DNA from: Escherichia phage PNJ-9
Strand: one strand, 5' to 3'
Length of the DNA: 64,000 bases
Sequence record: PQ100635.1
Shown: positions 3 to 16,286 of the stretch, one piece after another
Layout: each line of letters begins with the position of its first letter
Numbering within the stretch: the first letter of the stretch is position 1
The notes under the pieces: model-generated
What the model was told of the DNA's origin: nothing
Databases searched by the model: none
Seen by the model: the letters and a program-made list of their open reading frames with translations, nothing else
Translations under genes and position numbers: made by a program

Positions 3-434
3 AAACGTATTCGCGAACTTGTTATTGAAAAGAATAAGCAAGCCGCTTCTAAGGAACGTGAAATTCGTAAGCTCTTGGCTGAAGGACAAGATGTTACCAT
101 GCATGCTAAGCTTGGTCTTCTGTATCGTCGAACTGCCGAACAACTTAATACAAAAGCCGACGGGTACGCTGCTATGCGAATTGAAATTGCTCGTAAGGTG
201 GTTGAACTTGATGATGCTCGTCAGAACCTGGCAATCAAACTTGAATACATTCGTGAAACTCGAGCGGCCAATGCCCTTGGTATCTCTACGGCTGATGATG
301 TAATTGAAATCGCTGCACTGACTAAGGTTGATATCGAAGACACTCTGACTCGTGTTGAAACGTTCAATGGCACTCCAGCTGGTGTCGAAACCACTTCTGC
401 TGATGTACAAGAATATATTAACTCTTTGAAATAA
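3..434 (+). CDS. hypothetical protein, 5' end truncated by window edge
   Basis: Open frame from window start to TAA at 432-434; followed by stem-loop/T-run terminator. Confidence 0.55.
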
Positions 435-442
435 AATAATAC

Positions 443-464
443 GGAGGACTCCGGTCCTCCTTTT
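443..464 (+). terminator. intrinsic terminator
   Basis: GGAGGAC-TCCG-GTCCTCC stem-loop then TTTT. Confidence 0.65.
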
Positions 465-483
465 GGATAATAAAGGAGTTAAC

Positions 484-5189: not shown

Positions 5190-5668
5190 TGATTAACAAT
5201 AATATAGACGATGGCAATGAAGGTATTTCATACTATTCAGTAGATTGGACAGGATGTCCATCCTACTTAGTGAAACATATTTGCCAAGAATTTAAAATCG
5301 ACCAGCCAGCAGGTATTATCGTGAACAGATACATTAATGGATATCAACCTATCGATGAAGTAATACGAACAACTCAAGCTGAGCTTGAAAAGTTTTTCAA
5401 TAAGTGCCAATGGATAACAGGATGGATTATATTTGTACCGTCAGTGTGGTTTTTTAGTACTAAGGTGAGTTCTTTCGGTTTTGTTGATATTATTGCTATC
5501 TTATTAGCATCTAGTATCATAAGTGTTGTTGGTGGCATCATTGGCGGCGGTACCGCCGCCATCATTATTAATCTTGTTAAAAGTAGTTTACAGGAACGTA
5601 AAGACAAGATAAAGGCCAAGAATAATGAAGTTGAACGTTTTATTACCGAATGCAGGAATTTGAGATGA
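5189..5668 (+). CDS. membrane protein, C-terminal ERFITECR tail family
   Basis: TAATG overlap; Gly-rich TM segment; C-terminus NNEVERFITECRNLR. Confidence 0.6.
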   Translation: MINNNIDDGNEGISYYSVDWTGCPSYLVKHICQEFKIDQPAGIIVNRYINGYQPIDEVIRTTQAELEKFFNKCQWITGWIIFVPSVWFFSTKVSSFGFVDIIAILLASSIISVVGGIIGGGTAAIIINLVKSSLQERKDKIKAKNNEVERFITECRNLR

Positions 5669-5901
5669 GTATAGCAATTTACATTAAATCGGAATCGTGT
5701 GATAGTTATCTGTACACATACGATAAAGATGTGTCAGAAGAAAAAATCAAAGACGACCTTAATATGGACCTTGATATGTTCCGTCCTATTGCAGATTACA
5801 AACTTGCGGTCTCTAATAGTGAAAGTCCATCTAAAGAAACGCGCATTGAAGAATTTATGTCCGAATTAATGGCCAAATCATGGGACCGAGATGATGAGTA
5901 A
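5665..5901 (+). CDS. hypothetical acidic protein
   Basis: ATGA overlap with upstream stop; ORF track 5650-5901. Confidence 0.5.
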   Translation: MSIAIYIKSESCDSYLYTYDKDVSEEKIKDDLNMDLDMFRPIADYKLAVSNSESPSKETRIEEFMSELMAKSWDRDDE

Positions 5902-6383: not shown

Positions 6384-6872
6384 ATGAATATATTTGAAAT
6401 GCTTCGTAATGACGAAGGTCTTAGACTGACTTTATACAAAGACACTGAAGGCTTTTGGACAATTGGCATAGGTCATTTAGTAACAAAGAACCCGTCTTTA
6501 GCTGTAGCTAAAGCTGAACTTGACAGAATGATCGGGCGTAAATGCAACGGTACAATTACCCTTGATGAGGCTGAAAAGTTATTTAATGAAGACGTTGATA
6601 AAGCTGTTCGCGGAATCTTGGGTAATGCTAAACTTAAACCGGTATATGATTCTTTAGATGCGGTTCGTCGATGTGCATTGGTCAATATGGTCTTCCAAAT
6701 GGGTGTAGCAGGCGTCGCTGGTTTTACTAATTCTCTTCGTATGCTTCAACAGAAACGTTGGGATGAAGCGGCAGTAAATCTAGCACAATCTAAATGGTAT
6801 CGTCAGACACCTAATCGCGCGAAACGCGTAATCTCAACATTTAAAACAGGAACTTGGAAAGCGTATATATGA
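6384..6872 (+). CDS. e: endolysin (T4 lysozyme)
   Basis: [31 protein letters not shown]... near-identical to T4 lysozyme incl. catalytic E11/D20/T26 region; GGGAGG SD. Confidence 0.95.
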
Positions 6873-7150
6873 AAACATATAGCGAATTTTTATCAGAATC
6901 TATTCTTAACGAAGCTACTGACACATTTGCAACTAAGCTAGGTGCAGCTTTGGTTGAAGCTGAAAGTCTATTAGCACGTATTTCTGAACTTGCTAGTAAG
7001 ATAGATACTCGCAAATTTGAACGTACCAGCGATATCGTTAAGCTTGAAGCCTTGTTGCGTATGTGCGATAAACCGGAAGAAATCGCTAAGAACGGCTCGC
7101 TGATGAAACAACGTCTTGAAAAATATATTTCAGGCGCTTCAGAAAAATAG
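6869..7150 (+). CDS. capsid-targeting-sequence (CTS) protein, internal-protein-like
   Basis: N-terminus [10 protein letters not shown] resembles T4 internal-protein CTS MKTYQEFIAEA; ATGA overlap with e. Confidence 0.55.
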
Positions 7151-7628: not shown

Positions 7629-7889
7629 ATGAAAATGTATCAAGAATTTATCGCTGAAGCAGATGCCAAAGGTCATAAATTTAAAGTTAAAGCTTTCATT
7701 GGTGATGCGGAAGACTTTGGCTCATTAAAACGTAATGGGTATTTTTTCTTAGGTGGCGATGGTAAAGAAATCAACACCTATGCAAAACGTAGTGAAATTG
7801 CTTATGTTGTAGCAAGCCCTAAAGTAGATGTTGACGATATTGGATACGATTTTAACAACTTCGGAATTATTTCTGGCGGTAAAGCTTAA
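7629..7889 (+). CDS. internal protein (CTS-bearing head cargo)
   Basis: N-terminal MKMYQEFIAEA CTS motif. Confidence 0.7.
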   Translation: MKMYQEFIAEADAKGHKFKVKAFIGDAEDFGSLKRNGYFFLGGDGKEINTYAKRSEIAYVVASPKVDVDDIGYDFNNFGIISGGKA

Positions 7890-7952: not shown

Positions 7953-8255
7953 ATGAAAACTTATCAAGAATTTATCACCGAAGCGCGAGTAAGTGCAGGT
8001 AAATTAGAAGCCGCTATAAATAAAAAGGCCCATTCATTTCATGATTTGTCCGATAAAGACCGTAAGAAACTTGTAAGCCTTTATATTGACAAAGAGCGTA
8101 TTCTCGCTCTTCCTGGCGCTAATGAAGGTAAACAGGCCAAGCCTTTGAATGCTGTCGAAAAGAAAATTGATAACTTTGCTTCTAAATTCGGTATGTCTAT
8201 GGATGACCTTCAGCAAGCGGCTATCGAAGCAGCTAAAGTAATTAAAGGTAAATAA
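7953..8255 (+). CDS. internal protein (CTS-bearing head cargo)
   Basis: N-terminal MKTYQEFITEAR CTS motif; 100 aa, lysine-rich. Confidence 0.75.
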   Translation: MKTYQEFITEARVSAGKLEAAINKKAHSFHDLSDKDRKKLVSLYIDKERILALPGANEGKQAKPLNAVEKKIDNFASKFGMSMDDLQQAAIEAAKVIKGK

Positions 8256-8257
8256 CA

Positions 8258-8287
8258 GTTTACTTTCTCCTAGAATTGTGATAGTAT
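8258..8287 (+). promoter_or_regulatory. early-promoter-like element
   Basis: GTTTAC, 18 bp, TAGTAT. Confidence 0.4.
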
Positions 8288-8345
8288 ATTCATAATTACT
8301 TGGAGTGGTAAATACAGAAATGGACAATTCATAGGTCATTCCATA

Positions 8346-8364
8346 GCCCCAACCTTAAGAGAAA
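8346..8364 (+). repeat. repeated leader motif GCCCCAACCTTAAGAGAAA (copy 1)
   Basis: Immediately upstream of ATG 8369; second copy at 8848-8868. Confidence 0.5.
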
Positions 8365-8368
8365 CTAA

Positions 8369-8698
8369 ATGAAAACATATCAAGAGTTTATCACTGAAGT
8401 TACATTATCTGCGGAACAGAAAGCTGCTATCGAAGAAGCTAAAAATCCCAAAGTAACATATAAAGTAAATAGTAAAGGCGTTTTTGATGGCTTGGTTCAA
8501 GACCCTGAATTGAAAAAAGCTCTTTCTAAAACTAATGCGTACTTTGCTCCTAAATTTAACACAGCCGGCGTACTTATTGGATTGGATGTATTCAACTCTA
8601 AAGGTGTTCTATCTAATGCCTTTGGTTATGCCGCTAACAAAATTACCAAAGCCGCATGGGAATCCAATACCAAACAAGCTCAAAAGCCTAGAGTATAA
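8369..8698 (+). CDS. internal protein (CTS-bearing head cargo)
   Basis: N-terminal MKTYQEFITEV CTS motif. Confidence 0.7.
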   Translation: MKTYQEFITEVTLSAEQKAAIEEAKNPKVTYKVNSKGVFDGLVQDPELKKALSKTNAYFAPKFNTAGVLIGLDVFNSKGVLSNAFGYAANKITKAAWESNTKQAQKPRV

Positions 8699-8847
8699 TT
8701 CTTGCCTAATAAAGGGAAACGCAACCTCTCCTTATGAACGTCGAGTCCTCTGAGTGATGTACCTTTTCCAACCTGTAATAAGGTCGAGCCCAAGTGCGGT
8801 AATGGGTTTACATAGCGAGTCGAAGGACCTAACATGTGCCACGGAAT

Positions 8848-8868
8848 GGCCCCAAACCTTAAGAGAAA
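8848..8868 (+). repeat. repeated leader motif GCCCCAAACCTTAAGAGAAA (copy 2)
   Basis: Immediately upstream of ATG 8873. Confidence 0.5.
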
Positions 8869-8872
8869 TAAT

Positions 8873-9412
8873 ATGAGAACATTTTTAACTGGACCTTATC
8901 TATCCCTGATGAATGCTTTTACACACCATTCTGATGCTAGAGTAGAAGAAATTTGTAAGAACGGTTATGTCCCACCATTTGAAGACGTACTCAAGCAGTA
9001 CTGTACACTTCGTTTAGACGGTGGCAGACAATCAGGTAAATCGACCGCAGTAACTAATTTTGCTGCTAATTGGCTGTATGACGGTGGAACAGTTATTGTT
9101 CTTTCTAATACTTCAGCTTATGCTAAAATTTCTGCTGGCAACATTGAAAAAGAATTTTCTCGTTATTCTAGCGACGATATTCGATTCCGTTTATTTACTG
9201 ATTCTGTCCGTAGTTTTATTGGCAATGAAGGTTCTAAATTCCGTGGATTAACGCTTTCTCGTATTCTGTATATAATTGACGAGCCTATTAAAGCTCCTGA
9301 TATGGATAAGATTTACAACATACATATTAAAACAGTCCAACACTGTTGCAAAAGCAAATATTGCATCGGCGGTATTGCTCGTCCTCAATTTTTTGTGATT
9401 GGAATGCAATGA
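8873..9412 (+). CDS. hypothetical protein with Walker-A-like GGRQSGKST
   Basis: ORF track 8834-9412; ATG 8873 follows repeated GCCCCAAACCTTAAGAGAAA element. Confidence 0.5.
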   Translation: MRTFLTGPYLSLMNAFTHHSDARVEEICKNGYVPPFEDVLKQYCTLRLDGGRQSGKSTAVTNFAANWLYDGGTVIVLSNTSAYAKISAGNIEKEFSRYSSDDIRFRLFTDSVRSFIGNEGSKFRGLTLSRILYIIDEPIKAPDMDKIYNIHIKTVQHCCKSKYCIGGIARPQFFVIGMQ

Positions 9413-15812: not shown

Positions 15813-16286
15813 ATGATTATCAATGAAAACTCTTGGCACTTTAAAATTTATGCCGCGTTCAATAGTACATGGAATCGCCCTAAAACGTTGTGTGCTTATT
15901 TTTGGAAAACGTTAATCCCGGTATTGTCTGTTTCAATTATCGGATTTGCGATTTTAGCAGCAGTAACAATCATTGGCCAGGAAATTTTAACTAGATTCTT
16001 TGTTTTTAGCAGTCTATGGACATTAGTTCCAGCCTCAATTGGCGTAGGCATTTTAATGGTAGCAGTCATGGCTTTTATTTCTGCCGGGTTGGTAATTGGT
16101 CCGTCTTGGTTGTTAGACAAATATAACGACAGAAAATATTATAAAGAAATTGAGTTCATTGCACAAAACCAAGAACGAATTAAAAATGGACTTGAACCTA
16201 TTGAACGTAAGAAATCATTAATAGGTGAATACATTAAAGCTCGTAAAGAAAAAGTCTGTCCTACTCTTGAATATAAGGCTAAATGA
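15813..16286 (+). CDS. membrane protein
   Basis: Multiple hydrophobic helices. Confidence 0.6.
   Translation: MIINENSWHFKIYAAFNSTWNRPKTLCAYFWKTLIPVLSVSIIGFAILAAVTIIGQEILTRFFVFSSLWTLVPASIGVGILMVAVMAFISAGLVIGPSWLLDKYNDRKYYKEIEFIAQNQERIKNGLEPIERKKSLIGEYIKARKEKVCPTLEYKAK

What the first reader, a model, noticed from the sequence alone, without database searches (positions are those of the whole stretch)
8699..8872. Longest GC-balanced non-coding gap, ending in a duplicated leader motif
This ~170-nt gap after the internal-protein genes has no SD-ATG pattern, contains several short complementary segments (GTCGAG...CTCGAC-like) and ends in GCCCCAAACCTTAAGAGAAA, which also precedes the ATG at 8369. 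It could be a small RNA, a processing site or a translational operator shared by two genes.
Basis: seen in the sequence. Interest (0 to 1): 0.4.

Follow-up and report, generated by a model that had tools for sequence, protein, structure and literature searches.

The report
Conserved phage RNA three-way junction
The GC-rich gap before gene vs.8 of this RB69-like phage is not junk: it holds one copy of a very conserved folded-RNA module with no Rfam family and no description in the literature I could search, which is shared by T4-like phages and several unrelated phage groups, where it sits among tRNA genes; its function is unknown.

Summary
The window is an RB69-like Mosigvirus. The gap 8699-8872 is real and non-coding, with 46% GC against 37% overall. 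It lies between an internal-protein-like gene (RB69ORF123c homologue) and vs.8, whose start is ATG 8873. It contains a ~145-nt element (8706-8853). Its core (8764-8811) is a three-way junction: closing helix Pa, hairpin ACCU-GUAAnA-AGGU, a 2-3 bp hairpin Px, and an invariant GGUAA junction strand. Compensatory changes support all three helices across 50 diverse sequences. A covariance model scores true members at 45-72 bits and controls at 24 bits or less. No Rfam family, tRNA or paper matches it. BLAST finds the gap sequence in about 1000 phage records, mostly T4-like. The core also occurs in rV5-like, lambdoid and Kagunavirus-like phages and in a 360-kb contig. In most of those loci it lies 46-577 nt from same-strand tRNA genes, and some copies are followed by a terminator. 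In T-even phages it carries an extra 3' module with two GGA motifs 17-19 nt apart, a CsrA-like arrangement, just before the vs.8 ribosome site. The "duplicated leader" is the tail of a second, truncated copy at 8307-8368. Function is unknown. My best guess is a factor-binding structured RNA that is also used as the vs.8 leader.

The parts
8706..8853 (+). Full 'type B' copy of the conserved RNA element: 5' hairpin domain, three-way-junction core and 3' module
   Evidence: Aligned end to end with 30 relatives (A1). BLAST finds the gap sequence in 1023 phage records.
8711..8766 (+). 5' hairpin domain. Outer stem AAAGG 8711-8715 / CCTTT 8762-8766. Inner helices CTTA 8731-8734 / TGAG 8751-8754 and GAAC 8736-8739 / GTCC 8745-8748. 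Invariant CCTCTCC lies in the 5' internal loop.
   Evidence: The outer stem covaries (GC 21 / CG 8 / AU 1 at one pair). Other phage families have a different hairpin domain at the same position.
8767..8806 (+). Three-way-junction core. Pa TCCA 8767-8770 / TGGG 8803-8806. P3 ACCT 8771-8774, loop GTAATA 8775-8780, AGGT 8781-8784. Junction CGA 8785-8787. Px GCC 8788-8790 / TGC 8795-8797, of which only the outer two pairs are supported (the third is C-U here). Junction GGTAA 8798-8802.
   Evidence: Model R1 scores 71.9 bits, E = 2e-20, and this is the only hit in the window. RNAalifold finds P3 and Px independently.
8807..8835 (+). Weak sigma-70 / T4-early-type promoter-like site, TTTACA-17-TAACAT
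   Evidence: 9 of 12 consensus matches. The -10 hexamer is not kept in many relatives (by eye on the type-B alignment), so function is doubtful.
8825..8850 (+). 3' module. First GGA at 8825-8827. Hairpin GCCA 8838-8841 / loop CGGAA 8842-8846 / TGGC 8847-8850 carries the second GGA at 8843-8845.
   Evidence: Both GGA motifs are invariant in A1. Their spacing is 17-19 nt in 45 of 47 distinct T-even elements.
8849..8872 (+). Leader tail and weak ribosome site of vs.8 (GCCCCAAACCTTAAGAGAAATAAT); the start codon is ATG 8873-8875
8307..8368 (+). Truncated second copy (3' part of a T4-type element) in front of the ORF123c homologue. GGTAAATACAGAAATGGACAATTCAT, then an inverted version of the terminal hairpin (8334-8347), then the same leader tail.
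   Evidence: Alignment with T4, PKO111 and L032 (A3). The inverted hairpin matches on the minus strand.
8258..8287 (+). T4-early-type promoter-like sequence GTTTAC-18-TAGTAT after the ipII-like gene. It probably drives the transcript that carries ORF123c, the element and vs.8.
   Evidence: 39 nt identical to the ipII-downstream sequence of Klebsiella phage PKO111. The promoter assignment is inference from T4 early-promoter consensus as I recall it; the scan did not list it (8 of 12 matches).

Best explanation
Shown: the gap encodes, on the + strand, one full copy of a widespread phage structured-RNA module that has no Rfam family and that I did not find in the literature searched. It is transcribed as part of the early polycistronic message between the ORF123c homologue and vs.8. 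Its core folds into a small three-way junction: helix Pa closes a GUAAnA-capped hairpin (P3) and a very short hairpin (Px). The loop and junction nucleotides (GUAA-A, C, GGUAA) are invariant, while the helices covary. A variable hairpin domain precedes the core. Inferred: such a pattern is typical of an RNA whose folded surface is recognised by a partner. In most copies found outside T-even phages the module lies 46-577 nt from same-strand tRNA genes. In one locus (L253) a promoter-like and a terminator-like site flank it, and by eye terminators follow it in L249 and L254. I therefore think its primary role is as a discrete, factor-binding RNA connected with tRNA or translation biology, possibly a decoy or sponge for a conserved enterobacterial or phage protein, and not a gene-specific switch. 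In T-even phages the module has been built into the vs.8 leader. There it gained a 3' add-on with two GGA motifs 17-19 nt apart, the second in the loop of a 4-bp hairpin, ending 22 nt before the start codon. This fits the published rules for dual-site binding by the host regulator CsrA, so it may tune vs.8 translation. The 'duplicated leader' upstream of ATG 8369 is the tail of a second, truncated copy left by recombination around an internal-protein gene cassette.
For: Identity and conservation: the window is 100% identical to phage PNJ-6 and about 98% to RB69. BLAST finds the gap sequence in 1023 phage records; 39 nt of the core are 97-100% identical in the rV5-like phage MaxTheCat and in the record named Campylobacter phage A140, and 88-95% in other rV5-like phages. 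Non-coding: the PHROG profile starts at ATG 8873; RB69 and others carry 1-nt indels inside the core; the 8834 extension is not conserved. Structure, on 50 diverse sequences: Pa first pair AU 28 / UA 11 / CG 6 / UG 4 / GC 1 with none unpaired; Px pair CG 37 / UA 10 / GC 2; P3 pair AU 48 / GC 2; covariation score 0.226 against 0.094 in shuffles (0 of 500 reach it). Cognate Pa strands form at least 4 bp in 40 of 44 distinct cases, against a mean of 1.4 bp for non-cognate pairs. RNAalifold finds P3 and Px on its own. The 5' domain stem covaries. Specificity: model R1 gives 45-72 bits for members and at most 24 bits for 100 control loci that share part of the sequence pattern; it has no hit in the E. 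coli rrn operon, and its only hit in the 13.5-kb T4 locus that holds the tRNA/rnaC/rnaD region is the vs.8-upstream copy. Context: same-strand tRNAs lie within 46-577 nt in most non-T-even loci (20 of the 26 non-T-even loci in the hit list). A promoter-like and a terminator-like site flank the element in L253. Tandem copies occur in L025, L231 and L228. 3' module: both GGA motifs are invariant and 17-19 nt apart in 45 of 47 elements. CsrA rules (GGA in the loop of a short hairpin; bridging of two sites 10-63 nt apart, optimum about 18) come from PMC7652899. No known family: Rfam at gathering and at E up to 10; ARAGORN; literature.
Against: No transcript, probing or binding data exist, so every functional step is inference. 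Predicted folding energy is no better than for shuffled sequence. Apart from the covarying pairs, most core positions never vary, so they say nothing about pairing. The inner Pa pairs need a 1-nt bulge in many sequences and RNAalifold does not call Pa. Extreme sequence conservation could partly reflect recent horizontal spread. In T-even phages the nearest tRNA cluster is about 6 kb away, so the tRNA link is not universal. The second GGA hairpin ends 22 nt upstream of the start codon and the SD itself has no GGA in this phage, which is not the classical CsrA repression geometry. The T4 segment vs.3-denV, which contains the element, can be deleted without loss of viability (PMC9825161), so the role is accessory at best under laboratory conditions.
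Confidence: 0.5

Rival explanations
1. Cis-acting sensor. The three-way junction is an aptamer (riboswitch-like, for a small molecule or ion) or a protein-dependent operator that controls the genes downstream of it, here vs.8 and the vs/regB operon.
For: It lies in a 5' leader in all T-even phages. Invariant junction nucleotides with covarying helices are the classic aptamer signature. In L253 a terminator-like site follows the element before the next ORF. By eye a terminator also follows it in L249, in L254 and after the first L228 copy, but the scans of L249 and L254 did not call one.
Against: The downstream partners are unrelated to each other: vs.8, ipII, an Arg-rich small protein, tRNAs, assorted ORFs. 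It also occurs between two tRNAs and at the end of tRNA arrays. I could find no consistent alternative pairing with a terminator or SD. In rV5-like phages a promoter-like sequence separates it from the next gene.
Confidence: 0.2
2. RNA-processing element: a new self-cleaving ribozyme, or a docking site for a cellular RNase, that separates tRNAs or mRNA segments from long phage transcripts.
For: In L249, L200 and L197 the element starts within a few nucleotides of a tRNA 3' end, with the core 46-53 nt downstream. It is small, with an invariant junction. From memory, HDV-like 'theta' ribozymes flank phage tRNAs, which is a lead and not a test.
Against: No match to any ribozyme family in Rfam, even at E up to 10. 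In T-even phages no tRNA is nearby. It is also found hundreds of nucleotides upstream of tRNAs with an ORF in between.
Confidence: 0.12
3. Processive antitermination (nut- or put-like) signal that lets RNA polymerase read through Rho-dependent or intrinsic terminators in poorly translated tRNA or early regions.
For: P3 (ACCU-GUAAAA-AGGU) resembles lambda boxB (CCCU-GAAAA-AGGG, recalled from memory). The lambdoid contigs carry repeated TGCTCTT boxA-like sequences around it. The rV5-like phages encode a 112-aa protein with an Arg-rich N-terminus right after it. Untranslated tRNA arrays are natural Rho targets.
Against: No boxA is part of the conserved core. The hairpin has a hexaloop, not a pentaloop. 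Some copies sit at the very end of a unit, immediately before a terminator (L249, L253). No N-like gene accompanies it in T-even phages.
Confidence: 0.08
4. Mostly DNA-level. The gap is a recombination cassette and promoter region (like the PeSL cassettes of T4-type phages) that shuffles internal-protein genes, and the RNA fold is incidental.
For: Two copies flank ipII in PKO111, and a truncated copy plus a full copy flank ORF123c here. A promoter-like site lies at 8807-8835. The internal-protein locus is known to be hypervariable.
Against: Compensatory base changes preserve pairing. The element is always on the transcribed strand. It is kept in phage families that have no internal-protein genes. 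There are only one or two copies per genome. The -10 hexamer is not conserved.
Confidence: 0.07
5. Protein-coding: an N-terminal extension of Vs.8 (as annotated in T4 RefSeq and in PNJ-6) or a small upstream ORF.
For: T4 vs.8 is annotated as 219 aa running through the element. PNJ-6 starts it at window 8834. A 40-codon GTG ORF 8754-8876 exists.
Against: The PHROG profile begins at ATG 8873. 1-nt indels inside the most conserved block occur in RB69, L031, L036, L188 and others. Variation does not follow codon positions. Stops or frame changes are seen in PKO111, L013 and L020 (by eye from the sequences printed).
Confidence: 0.02

Closest known systems
T4 stable RNAs rnaC and rnaD (species 1 and 2) in the tRNA cluster
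   Same: Phage-encoded small structured RNAs of unknown function that travel with tRNA genes and are probably processed with them.
   Different: No sequence or structure relation. Model R1's only hit in the 13.5-kb T4 locus that contains rnaC and rnaD is the copy upstream of vs.8 (sequences). In T-even phages the new element lies about 6 kb from the tRNA cluster.
CsrA/RsmA-binding mRNA leaders and CsrB-type sponges
   Same: The T-even 3' module has two GGA motifs 17-19 nt apart, one of them in the loop of a 4-bp hairpin (GCCA-CGGAA-UGGC), close to a ribosome-binding site. These features match the published site rules (PMC7652899).
   Different: The conserved junction core has no GGA. The SD of vs.8 in this phage has no GGA. 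Binding is untested. The other phage families lack this module.
Lambda nut site (boxA + boxB) and HK022 put RNAs
   Same: A short purine-rich-loop hairpin resembling boxB in phage transcripts that must traverse terminators.
   Different: Hexaloop instead of a GNRA-like pentaloop; embedded in a three-way junction; no conserved boxA; no N-like partner in T-even phages.
Small three-way-junction aptamers and ribozymes (purine riboswitch, hammerhead)
   Same: Size and architecture, with invariant junction nucleotides and covarying stems.
   Different: The junction sequences differ; there is no Rfam hit at E up to 10; no consistent expression platform or cleavage site.
PeSL promoter-stem-loop cassettes of T4-type phages (Arbiol et al. 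2010, recalled from memory)
   Same: An intergenic module in the plastic early region, duplicated around variable genes, that can mediate cassette exchange.
   Different: PeSLs are many near-identical copies per genome of a simple stem-loop plus early promoter. Here there are one or two copies, a complex covarying fold, presence in unrelated phage families, and no conserved promoter.
GOLLD and ROOL large RNAs
   Same: Structured RNAs of unknown function, often in phages next to tRNA arrays (PMC12286853).
   Different: Those are 500-800 nt and form multimeric cages. This core is 40 nt in an element of 60-190 nt. No Rfam match.

Membership tests
tRNA / tmRNA | Cloverleaf detectable by ARAGORN or Rfam RF00005 | tested here: not met
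   No tRNA in the 64-kb window. Rfam tRNA hits in other loci lie beside the element, not on it.
Any Rfam 15 family | Covariance-model score at or above the gathering threshold, or a suggestive E-value | tested here: not met
   Nothing at gathering. Only noise at E up to 10 on the window and L003. Nothing relevant at E up to 1 on L012.
T4 rnaC / rnaD | Homology to the T4 species 1 or species 2 RNA | tested here: not met
   R1's only hit in L198 is the vs.8-upstream copy at 2856-2903. The sequences are dissimilar.
New three-way-junction family defined here (model R1) | Pa, P3 (GUAAnA loop), Px and a GGUAA junction strand, scoring far above controls | tested here: met
   71.9 bits, E = 2e-20, at 8764-8811. 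Members score 45-67 bits and controls at most 24 bits.
CsrA-regulated leader | GGA in the loop of a short (4 bp or fewer) hairpin | tested here: met
   GCCA-CGGAA-TGGC at 8838-8850, invariant GGA. The rule is from PMC7652899.
CsrA-regulated leader | Second GGA site 10-63 nt away (optimum about 18) | tested here: met
   GGA at 8825 and 8843, 18 nt apart; 17-19 nt in 45 of 47 elements.
CsrA-regulated leader | A site overlapping the Shine-Dalgarno sequence; actual CsrA binding and regulation | tested here: inconclusive
   No GGA in the SD region 8860-8872 of this phage, although by eye several relatives have a GGA-type SD. Binding cannot be tested with these tools.
Lambda-type nut site | boxA consensus next to a boxB hairpin with a GNRA-like pentaloop | tested here: not met
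   Hexaloop GUAAnA. No boxA in the conserved core (A2). boxA-like repeats occur only in the lambdoid contigs.
PeSL cassette | Many near-identical copies per genome, each a stem-loop plus a functional early promoter | tested here: not met
   One full copy and one remnant in 64 kb. The promoter-like site is weak and its -10 is not conserved.
Riboswitch | Aptamer with conserved pocket plus an expression platform, and a consistent class of regulated genes | tested here: inconclusive
   The aptamer-like core is met. A terminator-like site is called after the copy in L253 and others are seen by eye in L249 and L254. The downstream genes are heterogeneous. Ligand binding is not testable here.
Self-cleaving ribozyme | Site-specific self-scission | not testable with these tools
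   Only a negative Rfam result for the known classes.
rRNA mimic (16S 3' end / 530 loop, 23S H44) | Similarity to rRNA beyond chance | tested here: not met
   Best local alignments are 8-9 nt, at chance level. R1 has no hit in the rrn operon L259.

The most novel reading that the evidence does not exclude
The three-way junction is a new functional RNA class carried by many unrelated enterobacterial phages, T4 included. It could be a new self-cleaving or processing ribozyme used in tRNA-array maturation. It could be an aptamer for a cellular signal. It could also be a decoy that neutralises a host factor acting on tRNA: the invariant loop CUGUAA resembles the tRNA-Tyr anticodon loop, so a decoy for tRNA-targeting defence nucleases is conceivable.
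Probability: 0.2. Interest if true: 0.9.

Novelty: new variant of a known kind. Interest (0 to 1): 0.7.

Why it matters
T4 and RB69 are among the best-studied viruses, yet this element is unannotated. In the T4 reference genome it is even buried inside an over-extended vs.8 ORF. It is a 40-nt core with 18 invariant positions and clear compensatory changes, shared by at least five very different phage groups and habitually placed among tRNA genes. That points to a common, still unknown interaction with the host or with phage RNA metabolism. It offers a compact, experimentally tractable target in T4, where the surrounding segment is already known to be deletable. It may help explain what phage tRNA arrays carry besides tRNAs. 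It also corrects gene-start annotations for vs.8 and explains the mosaic structure of the internal-protein locus.

Tried and rejected
(1) tRNA, tmRNA and Rfam families: no match. (2) Thermodynamic stability: z-scores are not significant on either strand or in any of 8 representatives, so stability was dropped as evidence. (3) Helix GAGCCC/GGGTTT, my first guess for the third stem: 12 of 31 sequences are unpaired at one pair and there are no double changes. It was replaced by Pa and Px. (4) Coding hypotheses: rejected. (5) Host homology: no BLAST match in 5,426 E. coli genomes. rRNA look-alikes (16S 1497 GUAACAAGGU, 16S 530 GCGGUAAU, 23S H44 GUAAUA loop) are at chance level. (6) Antisense targets within the window: only chance 11-12-mers inside coding regions. 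(7) The genome-contig scan was wasted on a pattern that was too loose. All 120 hits are chance matches in GC-rich genes. They served only as negative controls, so nothing can be said about bacterial chromosomes. (8) A look-alike group, CCTGTAAAAAGGTGGGAATGTTGCGGTAA plus terminator, scores about 16 bits and was not counted as a member. (9) Literature: no paper mentions the core sequence or an RNA upstream of vs.8. The Pas sRNA and Hfq/T2 papers were checked and are unrelated. (10) A consistent riboswitch-type anti-terminator pairing: seen only in L249, not in L253 or the T-even phages.

Full report
WHERE WE ARE. The window is an RB69-like Mosigvirus. It is 100% identical over the tested 1.3 kb to Escherichia phage PNJ-6 and about 98% to RB69. 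On the + strand the order is nudE, lysozyme e, an internal-protein (IP)-like ORF, denV, three more IP-like ORFs (the last is 8369-8698, the RB69ORF123c homologue), the gap, then vs.8, vs.7, vs.6 and on towards regB.

THE OBSERVATION. The gap 8699-8872 is real. Vs.8 starts at ATG 8873: the PHROG family profile (positions 2-177 of 177) aligns from residue 3 of that protein. Three public records use three other starts: T4 RefSeq, PNJ-6 and RB69. GC is 46% in the gap and 50% in the element, against 36.8% overall. The terminal 20-mer recurs before ATG 8369 with a 1-nt indel, and no shuffle produced a match. Two details are wrong. GTCGAG is a direct repeat and has no complementary CTCGAC. The gap is also not the longest ORF-free stretch. 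Single-sequence folding is no better than for shuffled sequence.

IT IS CONSERVED FAR BEYOND THIS PHAGE. BLAST finds the gap sequence in 1023 phage records. These cover most enterobacterial T-even genera, including T4, where the matching stretch lies between denV and vs.8. A 39-nt piece is 97-100% identical in the rV5-like phage MaxTheCat and in the record named Campylobacter phage A140, and 88-95% identical in other rV5-like phages. Pattern scans of viral and metagenomic contigs recovered more carriers. These include 46-kb lambdoid contigs whose leader region partly matches HK620, Kagunavirus-like siphoviruses, a 360-kb contig, and contigs of 75-97 kb. E. coli genomes have no match. My bacterial-genome scan used too loose a pattern and returned only chance hits, so it is uninformative.

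IT IS NOT CODING. Several phages, RB69 included, carry a 1-nt deletion in the middle of the most conserved block while both sides stay conserved. Variation does not follow codon positions. The ATG-8834 extension and the T4 219-aa version are interrupted or out of frame in relatives. The family profile starts at 8873.

STRUCTURE. T-even phages have two versions of the element that differ in the 5' hairpin domain: type A (T4) and type B (this window). In type B the outer stem AAAGG/CCTTT covaries: GC 21, CG 8, AU 1 at one pair.

The divergent members revealed the core architecture. The 3-6 nt just 5' of ACCUG pair with the nucleotides just 3' of CGGUAA; this is helix Pa. ACCU-GUAAnA-AGGU is hairpin P3. 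The G of UCNAG pairs with the C of CGGUAA, and the next pair covaries; this is Px.

I counted pairs on 50 diverse sequences (A2). The first Pa pair is AU 28, UA 11, CG 6, UG 4, GC 1, with none unpaired. The Px pair is CG 37, UA 10, GC 2. One P3 pair is AU 48, GC 2. The covariation score is 0.226 against 0.094 for shuffles, and 0 of 500 shuffles reach it.

When one bulged nucleotide is allowed, cognate Pa strands form at least 4 bp in 40 of 44 distinct cases. Non-cognate combinations average 1.4 bp. RNAalifold independently calls P3 and Px but not Pa. Eighteen of the 48 aligned columns are invariant. They include the loop GUAA-A and the junction strand GGUAA.

A covariance model (R1) finds exactly one copy in the window (8764-8811, 71.9 bits, E = 2e-20). 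It scores the other members tested at 45-67 bits. It scores at most 24 bits on 100 control loci that share part of the pattern. It finds nothing in the E. coli rrn operon, and its only hit in the 13.5-kb T4 locus that holds the tRNA/rnaC/rnaD region is the vs.8-upstream copy.

CONTEXT. In most loci outside T-even phages a same-strand tRNA gene lies close to the core (tRNAs also):
- rV5-like phages: 519-577 nt downstream.
- Lambdoid contigs: 133-363 nt away in most of them.
- L197, L200 and L249: the core begins 46-53 nt after a tRNA 3' end.
- L238: the element lies between two tRNAs.

Among the 26 non-T-even loci in the hit list, 20 have a same-strand tRNA within 600 nt. The others show none in the DNA held, and several of those loci are short.

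In L253 a promoter-like site and a terminator-like site flank the element. By eye, terminators also follow it in L249 and L254, but the scans of those loci did not call them. Tandem copies occur in L025, L231 and L228. In T-even phages the tRNA cluster is about 6 kb upstream, and the element always sits immediately before vs.8. Where a second copy exists, it sits before an IP gene, as in PKO111.

THE T-EVEN 3' MODULE. Downstream of the core, T-even elements share two invariant GGA motifs. They are 17-19 nt apart in 45 of 47 distinct sequences. The second lies in the loop of GCCA-NGGAA-UGGC (8838-8850), which ends 22 nt before the start codon. These features match the published CsrA site rules: GGA in the loop of a hairpin of 4 bp or fewer, and bridging of two sites 10-63 nt apart with an optimum of about 18 (PMC7652899). 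Binding itself is untested, and the SD of vs.8 in this phage has no GGA.

THE DUPLICATED LEADER. Window 8256-8371 was aligned with PKO111, T4 and L032 (A3). It consists of four pieces. First comes the same promoter-like 39 nt that follow ipII in PKO111. Then there is a deletion of the whole 5' domain and core. Then comes the T4-type 3' module GGTAAATACAGAAATGGACAATTCAT. Last come an inverted version of the terminal hairpin and the same leader tail. So the shared 20-mer marks a truncated second copy. An IP-like gene cassette lies between one remnant and one full element.

WHAT IT DOES. Nothing here measures function. The fold, the invariant unpaired nucleotides, the spread across unrelated phages of enterobacteria and the company of tRNA genes argue for an RNA that is recognised by a conserved partner. 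I favour a discrete factor-binding RNA that T-even phages have merged with the vs.8 leader, perhaps adding CsrA control.

The rivals are a cis-acting aptamer or operator, a processing element or ribozyme, an antitermination signal, a DNA-level recombination cassette, and coding sequence. They are weighed in their own sections. The T4 segment vs.3-denV, which contains the element, is dispensable in the laboratory (PMC9825161). That fits an accessory or host-specific role.

COMPARISON WITH THE KNOWN. There is no Rfam family and no tRNA. There is no relation to T4 rnaC/rnaD. The element is not a nut site, not a PeSL cassette and not an rRNA mimic. Full-text searches found no description of the sequence or of an RNA upstream of vs.8. 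Subscription-only literature was not searchable.

VERDICT. What is there is a new, well-supported RNA family of unknown function.

Noticed in passing
window 8834 / 8873 / 8909; L198 2254-2913 (T4 NC_000866 64253-64912): Public records give vs.8 three other starts than 8873: T4 RefSeq (219 aa, running through the RNA element), PNJ-6 (window 8834) and RB69 (internal ATG 8909). The PHROG profile supports 8873.
   Followed up: yes
window 8334-8347: The terminal hairpin of the truncated upstream copy is an inverted (reverse-complement) version of GCCACGGAATGGCC. This looks like a hairpin-inversion event, and it removes the GGA from the RNA.
   Followed up: partly
window 6854-7150, 7629-7889, 7953-8255, 8369-8698: Four small ORFs contain an MKTY(Q/S)EF or MKMYQEF motif at or near their N-terminus. 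From memory this resembles the capsid-targeting N-terminus of T4 internal proteins. They form a tandem, mosaic IP locus interrupted by denV.
   Followed up: no
L202, L204-L206, L211, L212, L217, L225, L236, L241, L242, L247, L248, L256: A look-alike motif ...CGAG-CCTGTAAAAAGG-TGGGAATGTTG-CGGTAA... followed by a strong intrinsic terminator recurs in small viral contigs. The loci that model R1 reports score only 13-17 bits, and the two I scanned (L202, L204) gave no Rfam hit. It may be a separate unknown small RNA.
   Followed up: partly
L012 5100-5960 (- strand): Lambdoid 46-kb contigs have a non-coding leader of about 900 nt with a promoter, repeated TGCTCTT (boxA-like) sequences that form long spacer hairpins, the three-way-junction module closed by an 8-bp stem, and then four tRNAs. 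Part of the leader is shared with HK620 15817-16094, which is unannotated. There is a weak permuted-tmRNA hit at 5625-5750.
   Followed up: partly
L003 2674-3012; L037 about +57..465 after the core: In rV5-like phages the small gene after the element (phrog_3330, 112 aa) has an arginine-rich N-terminus, MADTTKKRRRRGRP, and an acidic tail, reminiscent of N-type antiterminators.
   Followed up: no
L037 60-205; L003 2426-2460: A sub-motif (C)CCYUAGAGGGCUUGAWAGUGC occurs upstream of the core in rV5-like phages and a second time downstream in the L037 subgroup. In MaxTheCat its GGCUUGA can pair with the invariant UCGAGCC of the core.
   Followed up: no
L025 5101-5242; L231 9021-9180; L228 830-962: Some phages carry two tandem copies of the three-way junction. 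In L025 and L231, from T4-like genomes of 172-178 kb, the two copies are diverged from each other.
   Followed up: partly
L238 4112-4333 (- strand): A group I intron (Rfam 90.9 bits) lies about 2.4 kb from the element in this viral contig.
   Followed up: no
window 8720-8735: The type-B 5' domain contains an invariant CCUCUCCU(U/C)A that resembles the 16S rRNA 3' end (CACCUCCUUA). No partner for it was found within the element.
   Followed up: partly
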